Positions 39,595 through 51,122 of a DNA stretch of 64,000 bases are shown one piece after another; position 1 is the stretch's first letter; each line of letters begins with the position of its first letter. The position numbers were made by a program, and so were the translations under genes. Under the pieces are notes generated by a model that saw only the letters and a program-made list of their open reading frames with translations, did no database searches and had not been told where the DNA came from. The stretch is taken from NCBI RefSeq assembly GCF_054482595.1, contig NZ_CM137008.1; one strand, 5' to 3'.

Positions 39595-42500
39595 TCAGAA
39601 ACGATATTCCACACTCAACATGGCAGATGTATTATGGTATCCATGTTCTCCAAGTTGAATGCCTGCATCAGCCCGGAATGCTACTTCTGGTGTTATCATT
39701 CCCACAACACCACCATTTATTTCTCCGATATCACGCGCACCATCCTGGTATATACTTACACCATTCATACTGGTGCCGAAAACACGACTATTGTGCAACC
39801 AGTGTGCCTCCACAAATGGTCTGAACGGAACCGCATACCGCGTATTTTTACCGTTTTTGCTGGTAAGCCATGTTCTTGCTCCCAGGCGGGTGAGAATATT
39901 TCCGTTACCGGTATTTTCAATACTGGTTCCGTTACTTTCATGATATTTGTCTGATTTTACATTCATCCGGACAACCTGAAGCTGCGGCTGAACATACCAT
40001 TCATGACTTCCCTTGTAATTGTCGGTAAACTCTCCAGCCTTCCATGAATATCCTGCTTCCAGAGATACCGTAAACCCTTTTGACTTCCATGACTCAGCAG
40101 GCAGCCGTTCTCCATTTATATGATTATCAAACCAGCTGTATTGCAGCCAGCTATCAAGATAAGAACCATTGTGTGTTTCATCATTGGCATACCATGTTGC
40201 ATAAAGACCCGCTGTGTATCCATTCATTCTTCCTTCCGAATGGTATCCGGTGCTCAGGGCATTCGTACTGTTATTATTATGACCATAGCCAGCCATCATA
40301 CCTGTATGCCAGCGATCGGTACCATTCAGGCTCCACTGAGCTATATCTCCCCCTATTAACACAACGTAGCTATTCCCCCGGGTTCTCAGCTGACTACTGT
40401 TGTCACGCCAGCGATTATGTTTTCCTTTATTATACATCCAGATACCTGCTTCATTTTCTTCTCCTGTCATGTGGCTGATATACAACTCCTGTCCCTGTCG
40501 TTCATACAGATTCGTTACAAACAGATTATTTGCAGCAGCAATACTGGCAACATAGCTACCTGCCTCAGGACGCAAATTATTATCATGGCTTTCCGGTACA
40601 GCTTCAGGTTGTGGTACAGGAATGTCTTTTCTGCTAATCAGATACCAGTTAGTGCTGTTAATCCCCTGACCACGTTTCAGTATGTAATCATAAGCTCCGG
40701 CTGTAATACGTTCCGTCTGAATGAATTCAGCATTATCAGCATTGCCACTGACGTGAATCACTTCAATCCCATTAAGTGTCTCTGCACCAGTACCACCGGC
40801 CTGAGTAACAGCGACACGGGTACGGCCACTGGCATTACCTTTAATCACCAGACGATCTGTTTTCGAATTGTCACCACCTGTTTCTGTCTGGAGGAGAATA
40901 AGTCCATTTCTGCCAGTGTAATTCCCTCCGACAGTCAGTATATTACCCGGCATATATGTAGTGAGATCGACTATACCACTATTGCTCAGATTTCCTGCAA
41001 CGCCCCCAAACCCGGAGAGTTTGCCCTGCTCTTCAACAATGACCTGGTTACTGCCGAGCATCACCGGTGAATCTGCGTTCCCCAGTATCACTGTCCCCTG
41101 AATAATATCTGTCATCCCGGTCCATTTTGCGTTATCGCTAATGTTCAGTGCACCTGCTCCCGTCTTGCGAACATTACCATAACCACTGATATTGTTGGTA
41201 AGCTGCCATGCTGATGTACTGTTCAGAGTTAATGTGCCATAGTTATCAACAAAGGCTGTCCCCAGATTATCAGCCGTGGATACAGCCAAATGAGCCCCCT
41301 TATTCACGGTAAAAACACCGGAAAAATTACGATTATTACCCGTTATATCAAGCATTCCCCCATTTATGTTCAGAGAACCATCCCCTGCAATAGTACCTGC
41401 AGATTCTCCTCCATTATTCAGTATCAGACTTCCGCCATGAATGTTCAGCACAGAGCCTGCAGCCGTCAGTAGTTTGCTTATTGTCTGAGGATACCCATTC
41501 ATATCCAGTTCTGCGCCACGGGATAAATATAAATACTCAGTCCGACCAAGAGCATCAGGTGCAGCAAGAATTAATACGCCAGATTTAACCTCTGTATTTC
41601 CTGTATAATTGTTTGTTGCAGAAAGTATAAGAGTACCATTACCTGATTTTGTCAGACTTTTGCCGTCCCAGCCATCATATAATAAAGGTGAAAGATTATC
41701 GGAAAGAGAAACGCCTATGTTCAGAGTGGCATCTTTTTCTATATTAAAGGTTCCATATCCCATCCCTTTTGTATTATTCCATCTCAGCATGGATATCAGT
41801 TTGTTATCGTCGTCATTTAAAGACGTATAAACATAACTTTCAGCACCTTCTGTCAGTAATACATTGTATTGTACAATGTGACTATTATCAGCGATCGAGA
41901 TACCTGTGTCTGACGACAATAATGTGTAATAGTCCTGAGTCCAGTTCTTAATTGATGTGTCTATATTAAGCCATGAATCACTTTTTAATGTAATAGTATT
42001 TGCGTGAACATTAGCATTTCCTACAGACAGGTTCATAGATGCGTCTTCATCAATACTTATATTTCCGTTAAAAATGGAGTTCTTGCCTGACAGATAAACA
42101 GATGAGCCATTCCCAATCATTAGCCCACCATTAATTGCTGTTGCGTTATTGATGTTTTTAATAATTAATTCATTTGTACCATTAACAGGTATACTAGCTA
42201 GTTTAATATCACCATTAATCACAGAATCTGAATAAATATCTAATGAATTATACCCGCCAGAAAAAATTATTGATGTATTATAAGCATCTTTTTGGCTATT
42301 ATATAATCCTGAAAGATTACCATGATTATTAATATGGATATCTTCTCCATAAACAGAGCAACCACCGTCGGGGCCATATCCCCCCTGAACAATACCGTTA
42401 TTATTCAAAGTGATTTGATTTCCAGAAATAGCATCTCCCCCTTGTTTTATTCCATATCCTCCAGATATCATGTTGTCGTTAGTAATGAAAAGATTACTAC

Positions 42501-43092
42501 CATTAATACCATCACCACCGTTTACGCCATTACCGCCCAATATTCCTCCGGAATTATGCACTGTAATATTGCTACCGGTTACACCGGAACCACCTGTCCC
42601 ACCTACATCATCACCTCCGTATATACTTCTGTAATTATCAACTATAATATCATCCCCGCTTAACCCTGCACCTCCGCTACTTCCTGAGCCACCAAGACCA
42701 TTACCCCCATATACATTTCTGTAATTGTTTATAGATATTTTGTTGCCACTAACAGCAATTCCACCATTATATCCATCTCCTCCCCAAACACTACCATTAT
42801 TATTTAGCGTAAAGTTTTCACCGTAGACACCTGCACCACCGATTGATGTATTGCTTGTTCCTCCTTTGATGTTAATACTGCTTTCAACAGATAGTATATT
42901 TTGAGTATAACTTGTTTTATACGGCACGCTGATATTAAGCGCCGCGTTTCCATCAACACCTGTAATACTCCTGGTTATACTTTCAGGTATACCATTACCA
43001 TTCAGTTGTATTGTTTGCGCACCAGAAAAATGAGACTGCACAGAATAAAGTATACTGACCAGAAATTGTAAAATTCGTATATTCTTATTCAT
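39595..43092 (-). CDS. autotransporter adhesin (type Va), AIDA/pertactin-like Gly-rich passenger
   Basis: 1165 aa; signal peptide; repeated GG-x-G and NxS/T passenger repeats; C-terminal beta-barrel ending ...SAMLSVEYRF; AT-rich gene. Confidence 0.8.
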   Translation of the reverse strand: MNKNIRILQFLVSILYSVQSHFSGAQTIQLNGNGIPESITRSITGVDGNAALNISVPYKTSYTQNILSVESSINIKGGTSNTSIGGAGVYGENFTLNNNGSVWGGDGYNGGIAVSGNKISINNYRNVYGGNGLGGSGSSGGAGLSGDDIIVDNYRSIYGGDDVGGTGGSGVTGSNITVHNSGGILGGNGVNGGDGINGSNLFITNDNMISGGYGIKQGGDAISGNQITLNNNGIVQGGYGPDGGCSVYGEDIHINNHGNLSGLYNSQKDAYNTSIIFSGGYNSLDIYSDSVINGDIKLASIPVNGTNELIIKNINNATAINGGLMIGNGSSVYLSGKNSIFNGNISIDEDASMNLSVGNANVHANTITLKSDSWLNIDTSIKNWTQDYYTLLSSDTGISIADNSHIVQYNVLLTEGAESYVYTSLNDDDNKLISMLRWNNTKGMGYGTFNIEKDATLNIGVSLSDNLSPLLYDGWDGKSLTKSGNGTLILSATNNYTGNTEVKSGVLILAAPDALGRTEYLYLSRGAELDMNGYPQTISKLLTAAGSVLNIHGGSLILNNGGESAGTIAGDGSLNINGGMLDITGNNRNFSGVFTVNKGAHLAVSTADNLGTAFVDNYGTLTLNSTSAWQLTNNISGYGNVRKTGAGALNISDNAKWTGMTDIIQGTVILGNADSPVMLGSNQVIVEEQGKLSGFGGVAGNLSNSGIVDLTTYMPGNILTVGGNYTGRNGLILLQTETGGDNSKTDRLVIKGNASGRTRVAVTQAGGTGAETLNGIEVIHVSGNADNAEFIQTERITAGAYDYILKRGQGINSTNWYLISRKDIPVPQPEAVPESHDNNLRPEAGSYVASIAAANNLFVTNLYERQGQELYISHMTGEENEAGIWMYNKGKHNRWRDNSSQLRTRGNSYVVLIGGDIAQWSLNGTDRWHTGMMAGYGHNNNSTNALSTGYHSEGRMNGYTAGLYATWYANDETHNGSYLDSWLQYSWFDNHINGERLPAESWKSKGFTVSLEAGYSWKAGEFTDNYKGSHEWYVQPQLQVVRMNVKSDKYHESNGTSIENTGNGNILTRLGARTWLTSKNGKNTRYAVPFRPFVEAHWLHNSRVFGTSMNGVSIYQDGARDIGEINGGVVGMITPEVAFRADAGIQLGEHGYHNTSAMLSVEYRF

Positions 43093-43676: not shown

Positions 43677-44030
43677 TCAGCTGTATACCCGCTGTCGTGC
43701 CAGTGGCTCATGCATCATGACCAGCTCTGCCAGACGGTAGCCCCGCTTCAGCCCCGTAAACCGCATCTGACCTCCGCACAGGATGCACTTCAGCGGGTCA
43801 ACCTTCAGTAACCGCTGATACACCCTTCTCCGCCTGATTTGCATCGCCGTTTTTCTCTCCGTTTCTGTTATGACGTACACAACATTTTCCAGTAACCGGC
43901 GCTTCACCGGACTCAGGAACCCGTTGTCAACGCCACGATGTTTGACCGTTCTGGGGATGCGGACGATTTCCTGGACTGCTTTATCATTCCAGCCCGCATT
44001 GTTGGCGGTACATTTTGGGGCTGACTGCAC
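43677..44030 (-). pseudogene. transposase C-terminal fragment with Cys-x2-Cys zinc-ribbon-like motif (possibly IS91-like)
   Basis: ...KVDPLKCILCGGQMRFTGL...; family uncertain; overlaps the end of the adjacent IS3-family ORF. Confidence 0.3.
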
Positions 44031-45135
44031 CCGGCGATAATTTTATACGCCGCTCGTTATACCATCTGATGTAAGTATCCACTTGCTGCATGAACTTTTC
44101 TGGCGTGATGCCCGACCATTTACGCCCATGATACATTTCCGTTTTCAGTCTGCCGAAAAAGCCTTCGCATGCCGCATTATCAGGTGAACATCCTTTGCGG
44201 GACATTGAGCGAATAAGACCTTCTGCATTCACTCTTTCCAGCCAGCCTGACCAGCGATAATGCCCACCTCTGTCACTGTGTATCACCGGTCGTTCGCCAG
44301 CATTTAACGTTTCGACAGCGCTATCCAGCATAGTGTTGACCAGTTCAGCATCGGGGCGTGTACTGAGAGACCAGCTCACAACTTTTCCATCGAAGCAGTC
44401 CACCACCGATGATAGCCAGACTTTACCTGCAGGGAGGTGGAACTCCGTGATATCTGTCAGCCATTTCTGATTAGGTTGCTCCGCCTTAAAATCTCTGGCG
44501 ATAAGGTTATCCGGAGCCGGTCCGATTTCTCCGCAATATGAGCTGTAGCGGCGACGACGGTTACGGCTGACGACAAGCTGTTCTTCCACCATAAGTCTGC
44601 GTACAACCTTTTCTGATAGCCGCCCCCCCTCATGCCTGAGCATCGCATGCAGGCGACGATAGCCATAACACTGGTAATTACTGTTAAATATATCTGTCAG
44701 CATCGTACGTATCGTGGCGTATTTATCACCGGCTTTCAGTGCAGCCCGGTGATAAAAATAACTGCTACGGGCAAGGCCCAGAACATGCAGTAATTCTGTC
44801 AGGGGATATGTTTGTCTCTGGGCATCAGCGATCTTCGTTTTCTCTCTGTTGTTCAGGTGACTGATACTGATGCCCGGGTCTTTTTTTATGATTTCCTCCG
44901 CCTTTTTCAGAATATCCAGCTCCATCTGCCGGCGGCGTATTTCCTGATTCAGTCGGGCGACTTCCTCCCGCAACGCATCGCGTTCTGCCTCCAGGGAAGG
45001 TTCGTTATGTTTACGCATAGTCTGGTAAGCACTGTTGCCGATAATTTTATCTTTCCATTTATACAATACCGCACGACTGACACCAATACGCCTGGCGATT
45101 TCACTGGCTGATACTTGTCGTGTACAGAGTGCCAT
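43984..45135 (-). CDS. IS3-family transposase (single fused HTH + DDE ORF)
   Basis: 383 aa; N-terminal HTH and leucine-zipper-like region, DDE region ...HSDRGGHY...SPDNAACEGFFGRLKTE... Confidence 0.7.
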   Translation of the reverse strand: MALCTRQVSASEIARRIGVSRAVLYKWKDKIIGNSAYQTMRKHNEPSLEAERDALREEVARLNQEIRRRQMELDILKKAEEIIKKDPGISISHLNNREKTKIADAQRQTYPLTELLHVLGLARSSYFYHRAALKAGDKYATIRTMLTDIFNSNYQCYGYRRLHAMLRHEGGRLSEKVVRRLMVEEQLVVSRNRRRRYSSYCGEIGPAPDNLIARDFKAEQPNQKWLTDITEFHLPAGKVWLSSVVDCFDGKVVSWSLSTRPDAELVNTMLDSAVETLNAGERPVIHSDRGGHYRWSGWLERVNAEGLIRSMSRKGCSPDNAACEGFFGRLKTEMYHGRKWSGITPEKFMQQVDTYIRWYNERRIKLSPGAVSPKMYRQQCGLE

Positions 45136-45594
45136 GACAGCCTGACGTTTGACTTCTGGTTCAAAGGGCGCAACCGGGTTGGCCTTACTGGTAAATATAC
45201 GTCGTCTGTCGGGATAAAGGTAAGCGTAAACTGACCGCCGTATGTAGCCATCAGACGAGAATTGGTAACTTAGACGCCCATCTGATATAGACGGACATCT
45301 AAGTATGGAATTACAGGACTGGCGAAAAGAACCTCGTAAAAACTATTCGAATGAATTCAAACTTCGTATGGTGGAACTGGCATCACAACCTGGAGCTTGT
45401 GTTGCACAGATTGCACGTGAAAATGGCGTCAATGATAATGTTATTTTCAAATGGCTCAGGCTCTGGCAGAACGAAGGGCGTGTTTCGCGGCGTCTTCCGG
45501 TAACGACCTCTTCTGACACTGGCGTTGAATTATTACGGGTATACGGATTTAATGGTTGATGGGGCACCTTTACCCCACCAACCTGATACCATTA

Positions 45595-46872
45595 TCAGAT
45601 GGTTGATAGATCGACCCCGTAGTTGAGTTCCTCTGCGAAGTCCGGCAGTCCGTAACCGATGGTTTTCTTGTAGAACGGAGAGACCTTCGCGGTCGGGGCC
45701 TTCTTCTTGTGCTTCGTGGTGTAGAGCATTCGTGCCCGCATCACCTCGAAGGAGTAACCACGTCCTTCACGGTTCTTGTCCTTGGCCAGTCGGTTGATGG
45801 ACTCCGTGTAAGCGTTGGTGACGGGCATGTCCGTCTCGAAGTAGGTCATGATCTCTTCGCGCCAGTTGCCTACAGCCCTGACCAGATCGCTCCAGACTTC
45901 CTTCTGGCCCTTCGGGATGGTGGCTATCCACTCGTCCAGGGCGGCTTCTGCCTGGGGCCGTGTGGTAGCGTCCCAGATGCCGTAGAAACGTTCCTTGTGC
46001 TCGTAGGCGGCCAGCAGTTGTGGGAATGCGCCGGTCCAGGTCTCCATGATGAGGCGTTCCCGGTTTGAGACTTCGTGAGCGCGTTTCAGCAGGATTTTCC
46101 GGTCACCCTTGAGGGTTCGGCTCTGGGAGGGCATCAGCTCCTTCCTGAGGCCCTTGCGCACCTTCTCCAGGGCATCGTTGGCCATGCGCACCACATGGAA
46201 CTTATCGACCACGATGCGGGCCTGTGGCAGCACCGCCTTGACCGCTGCTCGGTAGGGATTCCACATGTCCATGCTGACGATCTTGACCTTCTGCCGGTCT
46301 TTCATCTTCATCAGGTAGTTGGTCACCACGTCCTGACGGCGGGTGGCCAGCAGGTCGAGCAGGGTCCTCTCCTCGATGTTGGTCAGGATGCAGCGGTAGC
46401 GCTTGTTCAGGTACAACTCGTCAATGCCGAGAATGCGGGGCGTCTCGAAGCGGTGCCAGCGCCCCAGGAATTCGGCGCGGGCGTTGAAAATGTCGCGTAC
46501 CGTCTTCTCGTCCAGGCCCGTGGTATCAGCCACGTAGGCGTAGGGGTGATTGAAGGCTTCCTTCTCCACGTACTCATGCAACCGCAGCGTCATGCGGAAG
46601 CCGTCCACCATCTCCGGTAGCTGGGGCCTGAAGGTGGTCTTGCAGGCCCGGCAGGTGTACCGGCGACGAACTACCCAGAGGGTGACCCGCTTGCCGTGGA
46701 TGGGCAGGTCACGATAGGGAACATCACGCTTGCCGAACCGCACGAACTCACCCTGCACGCAGCACCCCTCGCAGGCTACTGGTGTAGGTGCTTCAAGCCG
46801 AAAATGTATGTCTTCATTCTGCTCATCAGAATCCACCAACTGGTAACCAGGAAGGCTTAACGAATTAATCAT
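45595..46872 (-). CDS. ISL3-family transposase
   Basis: 425-aa ORF; N-terminal Cys cluster (CEGCC...CRAC) and DDE-type core; family by recollection. Confidence 0.7.
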   Translation of the reverse strand: MINSLSLPGYQLVDSDEQNEDIHFRLEAPTPVACEGCCVQGEFVRFGKRDVPYRDLPIHGKRVTLWVVRRRYTCRACKTTFRPQLPEMVDGFRMTLRLHEYVEKEAFNHPYAYVADTTGLDEKTVRDIFNARAEFLGRWHRFETPRILGIDELYLNKRYRCILTNIEERTLLDLLATRRQDVVTNYLMKMKDRQKVKIVSMDMWNPYRAAVKAVLPQARIVVDKFHVVRMANDALEKVRKGLRKELMPSQSRTLKGDRKILLKRAHEVSNRERLIMETWTGAFPQLLAAYEHKERFYGIWDATTRPQAEAALDEWIATIPKGQKEVWSDLVRAVGNWREEIMTYFETDMPVTNAYTESINRLAKDKNREGRGYSFEVMRARMLYTTKHKKKAPTAKVSPFYKKTIGYGLPDFAEELNYGVDLSTI

Positions 46873-46884
46873 CTCCCGCCTTGA

Positions 46885-47919
46885 TCAGAAAAACAGGTAG
46901 GTGGCGTAACCGGCAATCATCGCCATAGCAAAAATGACTGCTAAAAACGCCGCTAAAAGCTTCAGCGTGAACAAAGAGCGCAACAGAATGAGCTCAGTCA
47001 GGCTGGCTCCGGCACTGCCGATGATCAACGCAAGCACCGTCCCGGCACCCACGCCTTTGGCCATCAGAGCCGCTGCCAGAGGTATGACGGCTTCAGCGCG
47101 AATATACAACGGCACGCCGATGACAGCGGCAACTGGAATGGCAAAGGGATTATCTGGGCCTGCATACTGCTCCAATAAGTCAGTGGGCATGAAACCATAG
47201 ATCACGCTGCCAATCGCAATAGCGATGAGCAGGTAAGGCAACACATCGATAAAGTCCGACCAAGCTTCCCGCCACACACCATTGTACTTCCCTTCTTTCT
47301 TAACCGTGACAGTGGGTTGACTGTCACAGCATTCGCTAGACGTAGAGACTGTTGTCTTCCTATCAGCCCCGCAAGAAGCCGTCTTCGGAGTGGTGTCGCA
47401 GCTGTTGGTGCCGCAACTCGATGCGGTCGATGTAGCACTGCACGGGCTTGCTGATGAACTACATCCACTGCTCTCTTGTGTCGCCGTCCGGCGCACATAA
47501 CGCTCGAAGCCAAGCGTGTGAAGCAGCCATCCGGCACCTACCGCGACCACCAAAGCGGCGAGCACATAGATAGCAGTAAGTGTCCATCCAAACGTGGCAA
47601 CCAGCAGGCCGACGACGATAGGATTCAGCAACGGAGATGTGAAAAGAAACACCATCATCGGCCCAAAACCGGCCCGTGCCTGAATCAACCCTTTCAACAT
47701 GGGGATAGTCGAGCAACTACAGAAGGGCGTTATAGCTCCTAAACCAGCAGCAAGAAAATAGCCTCGCTTCCCACTGGAAGTCAGTAACGCTTCCACCTTG
47801 GATGGTGGGATGTGACGTTGAAGAACTCCGACCAGCAAGCTAATGCCAATGAATAAAACCGATAGCTCGATAGCGAGAAAGGCGAACATGCCTAGAGCGT
47901 CTTGGAGTTGAGGTGACAT
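46885..47919 (-). CDS. ArsP-like / DUF318-type permease with Cys/Ser/Thr-rich central loop
   Basis: 344-aa polytopic membrane protein with a low-complexity Cys-rich loop (...SSGCSSSASPCSATSTASSCGTNSCD...). Confidence 0.5.
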   Translation of the reverse strand: MSPQLQDALGMFAFLAIELSVLFIGISLLVGVLQRHIPPSKVEALLTSSGKRGYFLAAGLGAITPFCSCSTIPMLKGLIQARAGFGPMMVFLFTSPLLNPIVVGLLVATFGWTLTAIYVLAALVVAVGAGWLLHTLGFERYVRRTATQESSGCSSSASPCSATSTASSCGTNSCDTTPKTASCGADRKTTVSTSSECCDSQPTVTVKKEGKYNGVWREAWSDFIDVLPYLLIAIAIGSVIYGFMPTDLLEQYAGPDNPFAIPVAAVIGVPLYIRAEAVIPLAAALMAKGVGAGTVLALIIGSAGASLTELILLRSLFTLKLLAAFLAVIFAMAMIAGYATYLFF

Positions 47920-48018
47920 TCAATATTACTCCTATATTTCTAGTTTTATCGAAATGATGTACGCAGTCTACTTGCGTTTATCCGACCTGTCAACTATAAT
48001 TCTAGAAACATCGAATTA

Positions 48019-48345
48019 TTGGGGCGTGCTATGGATCACGAAAAGGTTGCAGCCAGCTTAGCTGAGCTAGGGAATAGTCACCGACTGTCCGTGTTCCGCT
48101 TTCTGGTCAAAGCTGGCCATGATGGGGCTTCGGTCGGAGATATCCAGAAGGGGCTGGGTATTCCTGCTTCGACGCTATCACATCACCTTGCGCGCATGGC
48201 CAAGGTAGGGCTGATCCGGCAGGAGAAACATAGCCGCACGATTGTCTGTATACCCGAGTATGGGCACCTAGAGAATTTGATCGGTTTCTTACAAGAGGAA
48301 TGTTGTGCAGGTGTCCGGATTGCGCATGAACCAGAACCGCTTTGA
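48019..48345 (+). CDS. ArsR/SmtB-family metalloregulator
   Basis: 108 aa; HTH ...VGDIQKGLGIPASTLSHHLARMAKVGLIRQEK...; divergent from the permease gene. Confidence 0.7.
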   Translation: MGRAMDHEKVAASLAELGNSHRLSVFRFLVKAGHDGASVGDIQKGLGIPASTLSHHLARMAKVGLIRQEKHSRTIVCIPEYGHLENLIGFLQEECCAGVRIAHEPEPL

Positions 48346-48719
48346 CGCTTGCCCAGCTCTCGCTGTCCTCCCTAGTCAGCATCGCTATGAAGACTCAGGC
48401 GAAGGTGGAAACAGAAAATTGGCAGTAGAGTAGGCTGAAGAGGATCAATCAGATAATCCGCTGAGAAAGATTTTCTTCTTTACATCTTTGACATTTTATC
48501 AACCAGAAATTCCGGATACCCATTATTACCTGTAGAAATAACGCCGGATGAGCAGAAAGAACCTGTGGCGGCCATTGCGCCGTCTTTATCCACTTCCACT
48601 CAGACCAGAGTCAGTGCCAGTTCCTGCAAGGTGGAATTCCGTCACGGTAACATGACGCTGGAAAATCCATCGCCAGAGCTGCTCACGGTGTTGATCCGTG
48701 AACTGACCGGGAGGGGAAG

Positions 48720-49070
48720 ATGATCTCACTCCCATCAGGTACCCGTATCTGGCTCGTTGCCGGCGTTACCGATATGCGTAAATCCTTCAACGGACTGGGA
48801 GAACAGGTACAACATGTGCTGAATGATAATCCCTTCTCCGGTCACCTGTTTATCTTCCGTGGCCGACGGGGTGACACCGTTAAAATTCTTTGGGCTGATG
48901 CTGATGGTCTGTGCCTGTTCACCAAACGCCTGGAGGAAGGCCAGTTTATCTGGCCTGCGGTACGTGACGGCAAGGTATCCATTACCCGCTCGCAACTGGC
49001 AATGCTCCTCGATAAGCTGGACTGGCGTCAGCCAAAAACATTCCGCCTTAACGCACTGACAATGTTGTAA
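48720..49070 (+). CDS. IS66-family TnpB (orf2)
   Basis: 116 aa; MISLPSGTRIWLVAGVTDMRKSFNGLGEQVQHVLNDNPFSGHLFIFRGRRGD...; start overlaps tnpA stop (ATGA). Confidence 0.85.
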   Translation: MISLPSGTRIWLVAGVTDMRKSFNGLGEQVQHVLNDNPFSGHLFIFRGRRGDTVKILWADADGLCLFTKRLEEGQFIWPAVRDGKVSITRSQLAMLLDKLDWRQPKTFRLNALTML

Positions 49071-49100
49071 AAAACGCCTGGCCGCATTATAAAAACGGCC

Positions 49101-50486
49101 ATGAGTCAGAAATACCTCATTCGCATTGCAGAACTGGAAAGCCAGCTCCGTCAGAAAGACCAGCAACTGAGTCTGGTTGAAGAGACGGAGGCCTTCCTGC
49201 GCTCTGCACTGGCACGTGCCGAAGAAAAGATCGAAGAAGATGAACGGGAAATAGAACATCTGCGGGCTCAGATAGAAAAACTGCACCGGATGCTGTTCGG
49301 TACCCGTTCTGAAAAACTGCGTCGTGAAGTTGAACTGGCTGAGGCTCTGCTGAAACAACGTGAACAGGACAGCGATCGTTACAGTGGGCGGGAAGACGAT
49401 CCTCAGGTTCCCCGCCAGTTGCGACAGTCGCGCCATCGTCGTCCGTTACCGGCACACCTTCCCCGTGAAATACACCGCCTGGAGCCAGAAGAAAGCTGTT
49501 GCCCGGAGTGTGGCGGTGAGCTGGATTATCTGGGGGAAGTCAGCGCTGAACAGCTGGAACTGGTGAGCAGTGCCCTGAAAGTGATCCGCACAGAACGGGT
49601 AAAAAAAGCCTGTACAAAATGTGACTGTATTGTTGAAGCACCGGCGCCGTCCCGCCCGATAGAGCGTGGTATCGCGGGCCCCGGATTACTTGCCCGCGTG
49701 TTAACGGGAAAATACTGCGAACATCTGCCACTGTATCGTCAGAGTGAAATCTTTGCCCGCCAGGGTGTCGAACTGAGCCGGGCCTTACTCTCCAACTGGG
49801 TTGACGCGTGCTGCCAGTTAATGACACCGGTGAATGATGCCCTGTACCGTTATGTAATGAATACCCGCAAGGTTCACACTGATGACACACCGGTAAAGGT
49901 ACTGGCACCGGGTCAGAAAAAGGCGAAAACAGGGTGTATCTGGACGTATGTCCGGGATGATCGCAATGTGGGTTCGTCATCTCCTCCAGCGGTCTGGTTC
50001 GCGTACTCGCCGAACCGGCAGGGGAAACACCCGGAGCAACACCTTCGCCCCTTCCGGGGTATCCTGCAGGCGGATGCGTTCACAGGTTACGACAGGTTGT
50101 TCAGTGCAGAACGTGAAGGTGGTGCACTGACAGAAGTTGCGTGCTGGGCCCATGCCCGGCGAAAAATCCACGATGTATACATCAGCAGCAAAAGTGCGAC
50201 GGCAGAAGAAGCCCTGAAGCGAATCAGTGAACTGTACGCCATCGAGGATGAAATACGGGGGTTACCAGAGTCAGAGCGTCTTGCAGCCAGGCAGCAGCGA
50301 AGCAAAGCGTTACTGACGTCGCTGCATGAATGGATGGTGGAGAAGAATGGCACGCTGTCGAAAAAATCCAGACTGGGCGAAGCGTTCAGCTATGTACTGA
50401 ATCAGTGGGACGCCCTCTGTTATTACAGTGATGATGGTTTGGCAGAAGCGGACAATAACACAGCTCAAAAAAGATTTCGTTCGTGA
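49101..50486 (+). CDS. IS66-family transposase TnpC (orf3), C-terminally truncated
   Basis: 461 aa with leucine-zipper-like N-terminus, CPECGG zinc motif and DDE core; ends ...ADNNTAQKRFRS, short of the usual length. Confidence 0.8.
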   Translation: MSQKYLIRIAELESQLRQKDQQLSLVEETEAFLRSALARAEEKIEEDEREIEHLRAQIEKLHRMLFGTRSEKLRREVELAEALLKQREQDSDRYSGREDDPQVPRQLRQSRHRRPLPAHLPREIHRLEPEESCCPECGGELDYLGEVSAEQLELVSSALKVIRTERVKKACTKCDCIVEAPAPSRPIERGIAGPGLLARVLTGKYCEHLPLYRQSEIFARQGVELSRALLSNWVDACCQLMTPVNDALYRYVMNTRKVHTDDTPVKVLAPGQKKAKTGCIWTYVRDDRNVGSSSPPAVWFAYSPNRQGKHPEQHLRPFRGILQADAFTGYDRLFSAEREGGALTEVACWAHARRKIHDVYISSKSATAEEALKRISELYAIEDEIRGLPESERLAARQQRSKALLTSLHEWMVEKNGTLSKKSRLGEAFSYVLNQWDALCYYSDDGLAEADNNTAQKRFRS

Positions 50487-50597
50487 GGTCATGATGCAGT
50501 AAGCTTCATTTCGCGCACAGCCATCCCCCTGAAATCTGGCTGACTGTTATTTCGCAACAGTTATTGAGTAAATCTTTAACCTGTTAACAGAGGGTTT

Positions 50598-51122
50598 ATG
50601 AAACGTAAACTTATTGCCTTTGTGATTCTGGCTACATCATCCTGTGGATATGCAGCCACCAAAGATGTAACAATGAATCTTGTTGATAGTGACGGAAAAG
50701 AGCGAAATATTGGTAAAATAACCATCCAGAAGACACCCTACGGGCTGCTGTTCACCCCTGATCTTCACTCCTTACCCGCCGGCATTCATGGTTTTCATGT
50801 ACATGAAAACGCAAGTTGTGCTCCTGCCCTGAAAGATGGAAAAACTGTCGCTGCTTTATCTGCAGGTGGTCACTTTGACCCGGAAAAAACAGGGAAGCAT
50901 CTCGGTCCATGGTCTCCTGATGGCCACCTAGGTGATCTCCCTGCGCTTTATGTCACTCATGACGGAAAAGCAACCTACCCGGTGCTTGCGCCAAGACTAT
51001 CTGAATTAAAGGAGCTCGATGGCCGTTCGCTAATGCTCCACGCAGGAGGTGATAATCATGATGACCATCCTGAACCTCTAGGTGGCGGTGGTGCAAGAAT
51101 TGCCTGTGGTATCATCCCATAA
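50598..51122 (+). CDS. sodC: periplasmic Cu,Zn superoxide dismutase
   Basis: 174 aa with signal peptide; [10 protein letters not shown]...[17 protein letters not shown]...[11 protein letters not shown]...[12 protein letters not shown] matches the SodC metal-ligand pattern; diverged from chromosomal E. coli SodC as I recall it. Confidence 0.9.

What the first reader, a model, noticed from the sequence alone, without database searches (positions are those of the whole stretch)
45529..48529. Nested transposition: ISL3-family element with metalloregulator and permease passenger genes inserted into IS66 tnpA, with perfect 8-bp TSD
The 2985-bp insert has 26-bp imperfect inverted termini and is flanked by ATTATTAC on both sides. 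Removing the insert and one repeat copy restores a seamless IS66 tnpA reading frame. Besides its transposase, the element carries an ArsR/SmtB-type regulator and a permease with a Cys-rich loop, and is more GC-rich than its surroundings, suggesting a foreign origin and a mobile metal or organoarsenical resistance unit.
Basis: seen in the sequence. Interest (0 to 1): 0.55.

Follow-up and report, generated by a model that had tools for sequence, protein, structure and literature searches.

The report
Known ISPst2 element inside IS66
This is an intact copy of a known, widespread jumping gene (ISPst2, ISL3 family) that carries a regulator and a membrane pump, and it has landed inside another insertion sequence in an E. 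coli chromosome; the event is real but ordinary, and only what the two cargo genes do is still unknown.

Summary
A 2,985-bp insert at 45537-48521 has 24-bp imperfect inverted ends (20 of 24 positions match, not 26 bp). It is flanked by a perfect 8-bp duplication, ATTATTAC. Removing it in silico restores the 141-aa IS66 TnpA frame, and the restored site is 600/600 identical to uninterrupted IS66-like copies.

The insert is not new. Its length, gene content and both terminal repeats match the published ISPst2 isoform "CLJ-ISL3" (PMC7643977; also PMC5830473, PMC8615141, PMC6947025). Near-complete copies at about 100% identity occur in 82 complete E. coli genomes and more than 100 plasmids, at several sites, each with its own 8-bp duplication. 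This exact nested insertion is shared by 33 E. coli chromosomes, and about 154 genomes carry the same locus unoccupied. That points to one ancestral event.

The cargo is an ArsR-family regulator read divergently from an ArsP_1-family permease. The permease has an invariant Cys-Ser-Cys (CSC) motif and a variable Cys-rich loop.

- Two conserved operator-like boxes bracket the permease promoter.
- The transposase gene starts 12 nt after the permease stop, so it may share that regulated transcript (inferred).
- The substrate is unknown. An organoarsenical or a soft metal is plausible but untested.

Verdict: already known, low interest.

The parts
45220..45536 (+). Left part of the host IS66-family element (PGAP: ISEc47-family): left end starting GTAAGCG at 45220, and the 5' part of tnpA (ORF start 45305)
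   Evidence: Alignment to an intact 2,532-bp copy, L002. The sequence was read.
45529..45536 (.). Left copy of the 8-bp target-site duplication, ATTATTAC
45537..45560 (+). ISPst2 right inverted repeat (IRR, transposase end), GGGTATACGGATTTAATGGTTGAT
   Evidence: Identical to the IRR printed in PMC7643977.
45595..46872 (-). ISL3-family DDE transposase, 425 aa, intact
   Evidence: NCBIfam transpos_ISL3, 299.1 bits against a cutoff of 180, profile positions 2-369 of 370. It is WP_000610829.1.
46885..47919 (-). Passenger permease, 344 aa, ArsP_1/DUF318 family. It has an invariant T64-P-F-C67-S-C69-S-T motif and a Cys-rich central loop at about residues 146-200.
   Evidence: Pfam PF03773, E = 8.6e-57. 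Conservation was measured over 118 homologues. All NCBIfam hits fall below their cutoffs.
47938..47954 (+). Operator-like box, proximal to the permease, TTCTAGTTTTATCGAAA
   Evidence: Conserved in the intergenic regions of Sedimenticola, Xenorhabdus and Marinobacter homologues. The motif occurs only twice in 64 kb, against 0.10 expected.
47965..47993 (-). Sigma-70-like promoter facing the permease, TTGACA-17-TAGACT
   Evidence: 10 of 12 matches. The TTGACA hexamer is invariant in alignment A2. Function is inferred.
48000..48016 (+). Operator-like box, proximal to arsR, TTCTAGAAACATCGAAT
48031..48345 (+). Passenger ArsR/SmtB-family winged-helix regulator, 104 aa, with conserved Cys73 and Cys91-Cys92
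   Evidence: Pfam HTH_20 (3.7e-13) and HTH_5. The best solved-structure match is AfArsR, 6J05, with the CC pairs aligned. Cysteine conservation is shown in alignment A1.
48498..48521 (-). ISPst2 left inverted repeat (IRL, arsR end), GGGTATCCGGAATTTCTGGTTGAT on the minus strand
   Evidence: Identical to the IRL printed in PMC7643977.
48522..48529 (.). Right copy of the 8-bp target-site duplication, ATTATTAC
48530..50464 (+). Remainder of the host IS66-family element: the 3' part of tnpA (to 48723), tnpB (48720-49070), and tnpC (49101-50486 as an ORF). Homology to the intact copy ends near 50464, so about 259 bp, including the right inverted repeat, are missing.
   Evidence: NCBIfam IS66_TnpB 120.9 bits and transpos_IS66 374.1 bits. 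BLAST against L002. PGAP marks tnpC as lacking its C-terminus.

Best explanation
The insert is an intact copy of the known insertion sequence ISPst2 (ISL3 family; the 2,985-bp isoform published as CLJ-ISL3). It is an insertion sequence with passenger genes. It entered by ordinary DDE transposition, making an 8-bp staggered cut at ATTATTAC inside tnpA of an IS66-family (ISEc47-like) element in an E. coli chromosomal island. That was a single ancestral event, now shared by 33 sequenced chromosomes.

The cargo is a self-contained two-gene module, arsR read divergently from a permease. The proposed mechanism is inferred, not shown. The ArsR-type repressor binds two conserved boxes (consensus ATTTCGAT-N4-CTAGAAWTATAG when read towards the permease). 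These boxes bracket the permease promoter. A thiol-binding ligand captured by the conserved cysteines (Cys91-Cys92, possibly with Cys73) releases the repressor. The ArsP_1-family permease then exports that ligand using its invariant CSC motif.

The transposase start codon lies 12 nt after the permease stop on the same strand, so the transposase is probably made from the same regulated transcript. The ligand is unknown. Candidates are a trivalent (organo)arsenical or a soft metal such as Cu, Zn or Cd.
For: Identity of the element:
- Its length, three-gene content and both 24-bp inverted repeats are letter-for-letter those printed for CLJ-ISL3/ISPst2.
- The ISL3 transposase scores above the curated cutoff.
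- Copies at about 100% identity covering at least 80% of the element occur in 82 E. coli genomes and 109 plasmids from many genera.
- Independent sites each have their own perfect 8-bp duplication: CAGAAACA, CTTATTCA and TTTTTGTT.
- The published record shows copy number rising from 6 to 40 in a P. aeruginosa lineage.

The nested event:
- The restored empty site is 100% identical to intact IS66 copies.
- The left-junction queries, with or without the neighbouring IS3 fragment, are fully covered in 33 genomes. The right-side query (ISPst2 end, rest of IS66, sodC) is covered in 34.
- The same IS3-fragment/IS66 locus is found unoccupied in about 154 genomes at 99.9% identity.

The cargo module:
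- Pfam assigns ArsP_1 to the permease and an ArsR-type helix-turn-helix to the regulator.
- The divergent pair is conserved as a unit in Sedimenticola, Xenorhabdus, Marinobacter and Chromohalobacter, within unrelated neighbourhoods.
- Two intergenic boxes and the -35 hexamer are conserved while the spacer between them is not. The motif is unique in the window.
- The CSC motif is invariant, and Cys73 and Cys91/Cys92 are invariant or nearly so.
- The CC pair aligns with the As(III)-binding Cys95/Cys96 of AfArsR.
Against: Nothing contradicts the identity of the element or the transposition event.

For the functional part:
- No experiment links these two genes to any metal or arsenical, and PMC6947025 states their function is unknown.
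- All equivalog-level NCBIfam models fall below cutoff: SO_0444 Cu/Zn efflux 125.6 against 300, SaoE 89 against 325, arsenic_eff 32 against 100, and HTH_metalloreg 51.2 against 55.
- The module is not embedded in ars operons in any locus examined.
- Co-transcription of the transposase is inferred only from the 12-nt gap.
- The operator assignment rests on four aligned sequences.
Confidence: 0.93

Rival explanations
1. The cargo is specifically a sensor-exporter pair for methylarsenite or aromatic arsenicals. A two-cysteine ArsR like SpArsR would sense MAs(III) or reduced roxarsone, and an ArsP-type permease would export it.
For: - The permease belongs to Pfam ArsP_1.
- The best solved-structure match of the regulator is AfArsR. 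Its vicinal CC aligns with Cys95/Cys96, and there is no equivalent of Cys102.
- In Xenorhabdus the homologous pair is followed by a methyltransferase whose best family is arsenite methyltransferase (152.6 bits).
- Many carriers come from poultry and pigs.
Against: - A third cysteine, Cys73, is invariant in the family. It could complete a three-coordinate site for As(III) or for a metal.
- The Xenorhabdus methyltransferase is below its cutoff of 263.
- There are no ars genes near the module elsewhere.
- The permease scores better against a Cu/Zn efflux model than against the arsenic efflux model.
- The apparent livestock bias may simply reflect which genomes get sequenced.
Confidence: 0.3
2. 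The cargo is a soft-metal (Cu, Zn, Cd or Hg) efflux module, related in function to the SO_0444 family.
For: - The best NCBIfam hit is SO_0444 Cu/Zn efflux (E = 2.5e-36, aligned over residues 22-340).
- The central loop is Cys-rich, with a median of 6 Cys across homologues.
- A SO_0444-family gene is induced by Cd and Cu in Nitratiruptor.
Against: - The score is less than half the curated cutoff (125.6 against 300).
- The Cys-rich loop varies from 0 to 12 Cys and from 29 to 112 residues, so it is not essential to the family.
- The regulator most resembles an arsenic-responsive ArsR.
Confidence: 0.3
3. The passenger genes chiefly serve the element itself. The ArsR-type protein would act as a transposition regulator that ties transposase expression to a stress signal, and the permease would give the host little or no resistance benefit.
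For: - The transposase gene lies 12 nt downstream of the permease on the same strand, behind the only conserved promoter and its two operator-like boxes.
- That 12-nt gap is also present in the 95%-identical Halomonas copy.
Against: - The same arsR-permease pair is conserved without any transposase in several chromosomes, so it has a function independent of the insertion sequence.
- An internal transposase promoter has not been excluded.
Confidence: 0.2
4. The nested structure is an assembly artefact or a chance resemblance.
For: None found.
Against: - The identical junctions occur in 33 independently assembled complete genomes.
- The empty site is restored perfectly.
- The inverted repeats are identical to those published.
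Confidence: 0.01

Closest known systems
ISPst2 (ISL3 family; first found in Pseudomonas stutzeri OX1) and its 2,985-bp isoform CLJ-ISL3 from P. aeruginosa CLJ1/CLJ3
   Same: The length is the same (2,985 bp). The three genes are the same: ISL3 transposase, a 344-aa COG0701 permease and an ArsR-family regulator. Both 24-bp inverted repeats are identical letter for letter, and the duplication is 8 bp.
   Different: Nothing structural differs. Only the host (E. coli chromosome) and the target (IS66 tnpA) are different. Nucleotide identity to the ISfinder reference entry could not be measured here.
ISEc89a/b and ISProsp1 (derivatives of ISPst2 that carry lnu(G))
   Same: They share the backbone and the 8-bp duplications (PMC8615141). 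They appear in my plasmid search as two-piece matches spanning 4,097 bp with lnu(G) annotated (H38-H60).
   Different: The window copy has no lnu(G) insertion, and its transposase gene is intact.
AfArsR (Acidithiobacillus ferrooxidans, PDB 6J05) and SpArsR (Shewanella putrefaciens 200)
   Same: The fold is a winged helix. A vicinal Cys pair at the end of the C-terminal helix aligns with AfArsR Cys95/Cys96. As in SpArsR, there is no equivalent of Cys102.
   Different: The match is weak (39 bits). There is an additional invariant Cys73 in the beta-hairpin that neither reference is described as using. Ligand response is untested.
ArsP (methylarsenite efflux permease) and the SO_0444 / SaoE transporters of the same Pfam family
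   Same: The protein has the PF03773 domain over its full length and the conserved CSC motif.
   Different: It falls below the curated cutoffs of every named subfamily. It is not located in an ars operon. It has a variable Cys/Ser/Thr-rich central loop.
IS66-family element (PGAP: ISEc47 family), the host of the insertion
   Same: It has the tnpA-tnpB-tnpC organisation and a left end starting GTAAGCG. The intact relative is 2,532 bp with an 8-bp duplication.
   Different: The window copy is interrupted in tnpA. It also lacks about 259 bp at its right end, including the right inverted repeat, so it is doubly defective.

Membership tests
ISL3 family / ISPst2 | DDE transposase matching the ISL3 profile | tested here: met
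   NF033550 scores 299.1 bits against a cutoff of 180, covering profile positions 2-369 of 370.
ISL3 family / ISPst2 | Terminal inverted repeats identical to those of ISPst2 | tested here: met
   The 24-bp repeats equal the IRL and IRR sequences printed in PMC7643977. They also fit the consensus GGGTATMCGGAWTTWMTGGTTGAT in PMC5830473.
ISL3 family / ISPst2 | 8-bp target-site duplication | tested here: met
   ATTATTAC in the window. CAGAAACA, CTTATTCA and TTTTTGTT at three other sites.
ISL3 family / ISPst2 | At least 95% nucleotide identity to the ISfinder reference sequence (isoform rule) | not testable with these tools
   There is no ISfinder access. The literature reports 97% identity for a 2,985-bp copy and calls the identical-looking CLJ-ISL3 an isoform. 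The ArsR protein is 100% identical, over 98% of the query, to UniRef entry Q9X7J1.
ISL3 family / ISPst2 | Multiple copies at different loci and in different hosts (mobility) | tested here: met
   138 places in 123 E. coli genomes. Matches in 376 plasmid records across more than 10 genera, of which 109 carry a near-complete copy.
IS66 family (host element) | tnpA, tnpB and tnpC gene set | tested here: met
   IS66_TnpB 120.9 bits against 50, and transpos_IS66 374.1 bits against 180. TnpA is restored on excision and is identical to annotated TnpA copies.
IS66 family (host element) | Both terminal inverted repeats present (complete element) | tested here: not met
   Homology to the intact 2,532-bp copy stops about 259 bp before its right end. 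PGAP flags tnpC as missing its C-terminus.
ArsR/SmtB metalloregulators | Winged helix-turn-helix of the ArsR type | tested here: met
   Pfam HTH_20 at 3.7e-13 and HTH_5 at 5.1e-06. NCBIfam HTH_metalloreg scores 51.2 bits, just under its cutoff of 55.
ArsR/SmtB metalloregulators | A recognised As(III) site: type 1 CVC in the DNA-binding helix, or type 2 Cys95/Cys96/Cys102 | tested here: inconclusive
   There is no CVC motif. The CC pair aligns with AfArsR Cys95/Cys96, but there is no equivalent of Cys102. An extra invariant Cys73 is present.
ArsP organoarsenical exporters | PF03773 domain with the conserved Cys motif | tested here: met
   E = 8.6e-57 over residues 5-340. C67-S-C69 is present in all 118 aligned homologues.
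ArsP organoarsenical exporters | Genomic association with ars genes | tested here: not met
   No ars genes lie next to the module in the insertion sequence or in the Sedimenticola, Marinobacter, Chromohalobacter or Denitrovibrio loci. Xenorhabdus alone has an ArsM-like gene, and it is below cutoff.
ArsP organoarsenical exporters | Demonstrated efflux of, or resistance to, MAs(III) or roxarsone | not testable with these tools
   This requires MIC and transport assays.
SO_0444 Cu/Zn efflux transporters | Score above the curated equivalog cutoff | tested here: not met
   125.6 bits against a cutoff of 300.

The most novel reading that the evidence does not exclude
The ISPst2 cargo could be a sensor-exporter pair of a kind not yet characterised. 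The ArsR-family repressor would use a cysteine arrangement not among the described ArsR site types: Cys73 in the beta-hairpin plus the vicinal pair Cys91/Cys92. It would control, through two operators, a single transcript encoding both a CSC-motif permease and the transposase. Exposure to the ligand (an organoarsenical or a soft metal) would then switch on efflux and transposition of the element together.
Probability: 0.2. Interest if true: 0.5.

Novelty: already known. Interest (0 to 1): 0.12.

Why it matters
As a structure it matters little. One insertion sequence landing inside another is routine, and this element is already named and described in several pathogens.

It has some practical value for annotation. 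PGAP labels the three genes only generically, so the element goes unrecognised. It is an active element: the published record shows it disrupting antibiotic-susceptibility and flagellar genes in P. aeruginosa, and carrying lnu(G) in its derivatives.

The open question is what the ArsR-permease cargo does, and whether the transposase is expressed under the same ligand-responsive control. This element is very widely spread. A defined inducer would therefore bear on co-selection by feed additives or metals.

Tried and rejected
- **Solved structures, permease:** only two weak, unrelated matches (E = 0.033 and 0.38), nothing usable.
- **Rfam, 45000-51000:** no RNA family at gathering threshold.
- **Generic promoter and terminator scan of the element:** counts were no higher than in shuffles (2 against 2.1, and 2 against 2.8). 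Only the promoter that is also phylogenetically conserved was kept. The terminator-like site at 46951-46967 lies inside the permease gene and was dismissed.
- **Outward promoter reported in the arsR-end repeat by PMC5830473:** the scan did not pick it up. By my reading, the spacing between the quoted boxes is too short for a standard sigma-70 promoter, so I make no claim that it drives the downstream IS66 genes.
- **NCBIfam equivalogs for the permease (SO_0444, SaoE, arsenic_eff):** all were below cutoff, so none was used as a name.
- **Thiohalophilus locus (88% permease identity) as the possible chromosomal source of the cargo:** rejected. DNA homology runs from element position 1 to 1899, covering the left repeat and 250 nt of the transposase gene, so it is a decayed copy of the insertion sequence.
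- **Failed look-ups:** the ArsP paper PMC4681449 is not held.
- **Proteins in the cluster look-up:** no source names them 'ISPst2'. The name rests on the literature match.
Full report

Yes. Reading 45300-48800 and checking by script gives a 2,985-bp insert at 45537-48521.

- ATTATTAC lies immediately outside both ends, at 45529-45536 and 48522-48529.
- The ends are inverted repeats: GGGTATACGGATTTAATGGTTGAT on the left, and GGGTATCCGGAATTTCTGGTTGAT as the reverse complement of the right end.
- They match at 20 of 24 positions.
- The repeat finder's 29-nt arm (I1) runs into the duplication.
- Deleting the insert and one copy of the duplication gives a continuous 141-aa ORF starting at 45305.
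- The insert is 54.5% GC, against 43.2% and 47.9% in the 5-kb flanks. The transposase region reaches about 60%.

**2. Independent proof that this is a transposition**

The reconstructed 600-bp empty site is 100% identical to uninterrupted IS66-like tnpA-tnpB copies. Places covering at least 80% of it occur in 2,674 of 5,426 complete E. coli genomes. The chance of an 8-bp match at two fixed positions is 4^-8.

Three other copies of the same element were read at their junctions. One is in the E. coli Br_190 chromosome, one in a Salmonella IncHI2 plasmid and one in an E. coli IncF plasmid. Each has its own perfect 8-bp duplication: CAGAAACA, CTTATTCA and TTTTTGTT.

**3. What the insert is**

The 425-aa protein passes the curated ISL3 transposase model (299 bits against a cutoff of 180). 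The literature search identified the whole element.

- PMC7643977 describes "CLJ-ISL3, an isoform of ISPst2". It is 2,985 bp and encodes a transposase, a 344-aa COG0701 permease and an ArsR-family regulator. It prints the two 24-bp repeats, which are letter-for-letter those in the window.
- PMC5830473 gives the same length and the repeat consensus GGGTATMCGGAWTTWMTGGTTGAT.
- PMC8615141 names the genes tnpA, yraQ and arsR, and describes the lnu(G)-carrying derivatives ISEc89a/b.
- PMC6947025 notes that the functions of the two non-transposase genes are unknown.

The element is widespread.

- 82 E. coli genomes hold a near-complete copy, and the 30 listed are 100% identical.
- 376 plasmid records from Escherichia, Enterobacter, Klebsiella, Salmonella, Acinetobacter, Pseudomonas, Vibrio and others hold a match. 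Of these, 109 carry a near-complete copy.

**4. The host element and the history of the locus**

The window matches the chromosome of E. coli O157:H16 strain Santai.

The interrupted element is an IS66-family member. PGAP labels an intact relative as ISEc47 family. That relative is 2,532 bp with the 8-bp duplication AAACATCG. The window copy starts at 45220 (GTAAGCG...) and loses homology near 50464. About 259 bp, including the right inverted repeat and the end of tnpC, are therefore missing. The host element is thus defective twice over.

The left junction, with or without the neighbouring IS3 fragment, is present in 33 genomes, all chromosomal. The right-side context through sodC is present in 34. 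The same IS3-fragment/IS66 locus occurs without the insert, at 99.9% identity, in about 154 genomes, including avian pathogenic strains. The simplest reading is a single insertion into an existing island, inherited since then.

**5. The cargo genes**

The permease has a full-length Pfam ArsP_1 domain (E = 8.6e-57). It is below the cutoff of every named NCBIfam subfamily: SO_0444 Cu/Zn efflux 125.6 against 300, SaoE 89 against 325, and arsenic efflux 32 against 100.

Across 118 homologues, the motif T-P-F-C67-S-C69-S-T is invariant. The central loop varies from 29 to 112 residues and from 0 to 12 cysteines, with a median of 6. The CSC tripeptide is the hallmark shared by SO_0444 and SaoE.

The regulator is an ArsR-type winged helix. 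Its best solved relative is AfArsR (6J05). The regulator's Cys91-Cys92 align with the As(III)-binding Cys95-Cys96 of AfArsR, and there is no counterpart of Cys102. According to PMC11868830, SpArsR lacks that third cysteine and responds to methylarsenite but not arsenite.

There is a complication. An alignment of 20 homologues shows that Cys73 is invariant, and Cys91/Cys92 are present in 19 of 20. A three-cysteine site, possibly formed between subunits, therefore cannot be excluded. That last point is my inference from the family's fold.

**6. Regulation**

The arsR-permease pair occurs as a unit, without a transposase and in unrelated neighbourhoods, in Sedimenticola, Xenorhabdus, Marinobacter and Chromohalobacter.

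Aligning the intergenic regions of the first three with the window shows two conserved boxes, ATTTCGAT-N4-CTAGAAWTATAG, and an invariant TTGACA. The sequence between them is not conserved. The scan places a TTGACA-17-TAGACT promoter, facing the permease, between the boxes. The box motif occurs only at these two places in 64 kb, against 0.10 expected.

I infer that these are the repressor's operators. The transposase start codon follows the permease stop by 12 nt on the same strand. The same gap is present in a 95%-identical Halomonas copy. The transposase is therefore probably co-transcribed with the permease. This is inference only.

**7. Source of the cargo**

DNA homology to a chromosomal Marinobacter locus (82%) runs from the arsR stop to 23 nt beyond the permease stop, element positions 177-1660. 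This suggests capture from a marine or halophilic gammaproteobacterium. A Thiohalophilus locus first looked like a closer source. It turned out to be a decayed copy of the insertion sequence, with homology from position 1 to 1899.

**8. Verdict**

However, the element is an already described and named insertion sequence, and nesting inside another insertion sequence is commonplace.

The only open matter is the function of the cargo and whether it is coupled to transposition. I estimate roughly equal odds, about 0.3 each, for an (organo)arsenical substrate and a soft-metal substrate. Neither has been tested.

Noticed in passing
window 47938-47954 and 48000-48016: Two copies of an operator-like motif, TTCTAG-N4-ATCGAA, bracket the permease promoter. 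They are conserved in distant chromosomal homologues. I did not come across them in the papers I read.
   Followed up: partly
window 46872-46885: Only 12 nt separate the permease stop from the transposase start, on the same strand. This suggests one transcript under ArsR control.
   Followed up: partly
window 50464-50598: The host IS66-family element ends abruptly about 259 bp short of its right end. This is just upstream of a sodC (Cu,Zn superoxide dismutase) gene at 50598-51122.
   Followed up: partly
window 43984-45219: An IS3-family transposase fragment directly abuts the IS66 left end at 45220. It appears as a 383-aa ORF, and PGAP marks it as missing its N-terminus. An IS91 fragment and an IS1 copy lie further left, so the region is a graveyard of insertion sequences.
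   Followed up: no
window 39595-43092: A 1,165-aa autotransporter gene on the minus strand lies in low-GC DNA (31-48%). This is typical of a horizontally acquired island.
   Followed up: no
L008 7103-8185 (Xenorhabdus nematophila): A 360-aa methyltransferase follows the homologous arsR-permease pair. Its best NCBIfam family is arsenite methyltransferase, at 152.6 bits against a cutoff of 263.
   Followed up: partly
L015 4406-6294 (Thiohalophilus sp.): A decayed ISPst2 relative (84% nucleotide identity, element positions 1-1899, truncated transposase gene) sits just downstream of glmS.
   Followed up: partly
L010 5578-6986 (Marinobacter sp. AL4B): A chromosomal arsR-permease module is 82% identical in DNA to the cargo. 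Homology ends at the arsR stop on one side and 23 nt past the permease stop on the other. It is a candidate source lineage for the passenger genes.
   Followed up: partly
plasmid hits H38-H60: Many plasmids from pigs and poultry carry the element split into two pieces spanning 4,097 bp, with lnu(G) inside. These are the ISEc89-type derivatives described in PMC8615141.
   Followed up: no
L011 6001-6948 (Denitrovibrio acetiphilus): A permease 73% identical in protein (81% in DNA) occurs in a Deferribacteres genome. It has no adjacent arsR and lies near other transposase genes, which suggests transfer between phyla.
   Followed up: no
L001 22258-23766: A group II intron reverse transcriptase (ltrA) lies inside another IS3 remnant about 7 kb to the right of the finding. 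In strain Br_190 (L003) an ISPst2 copy sits immediately next to a similar ltrA gene.
   Followed up: no
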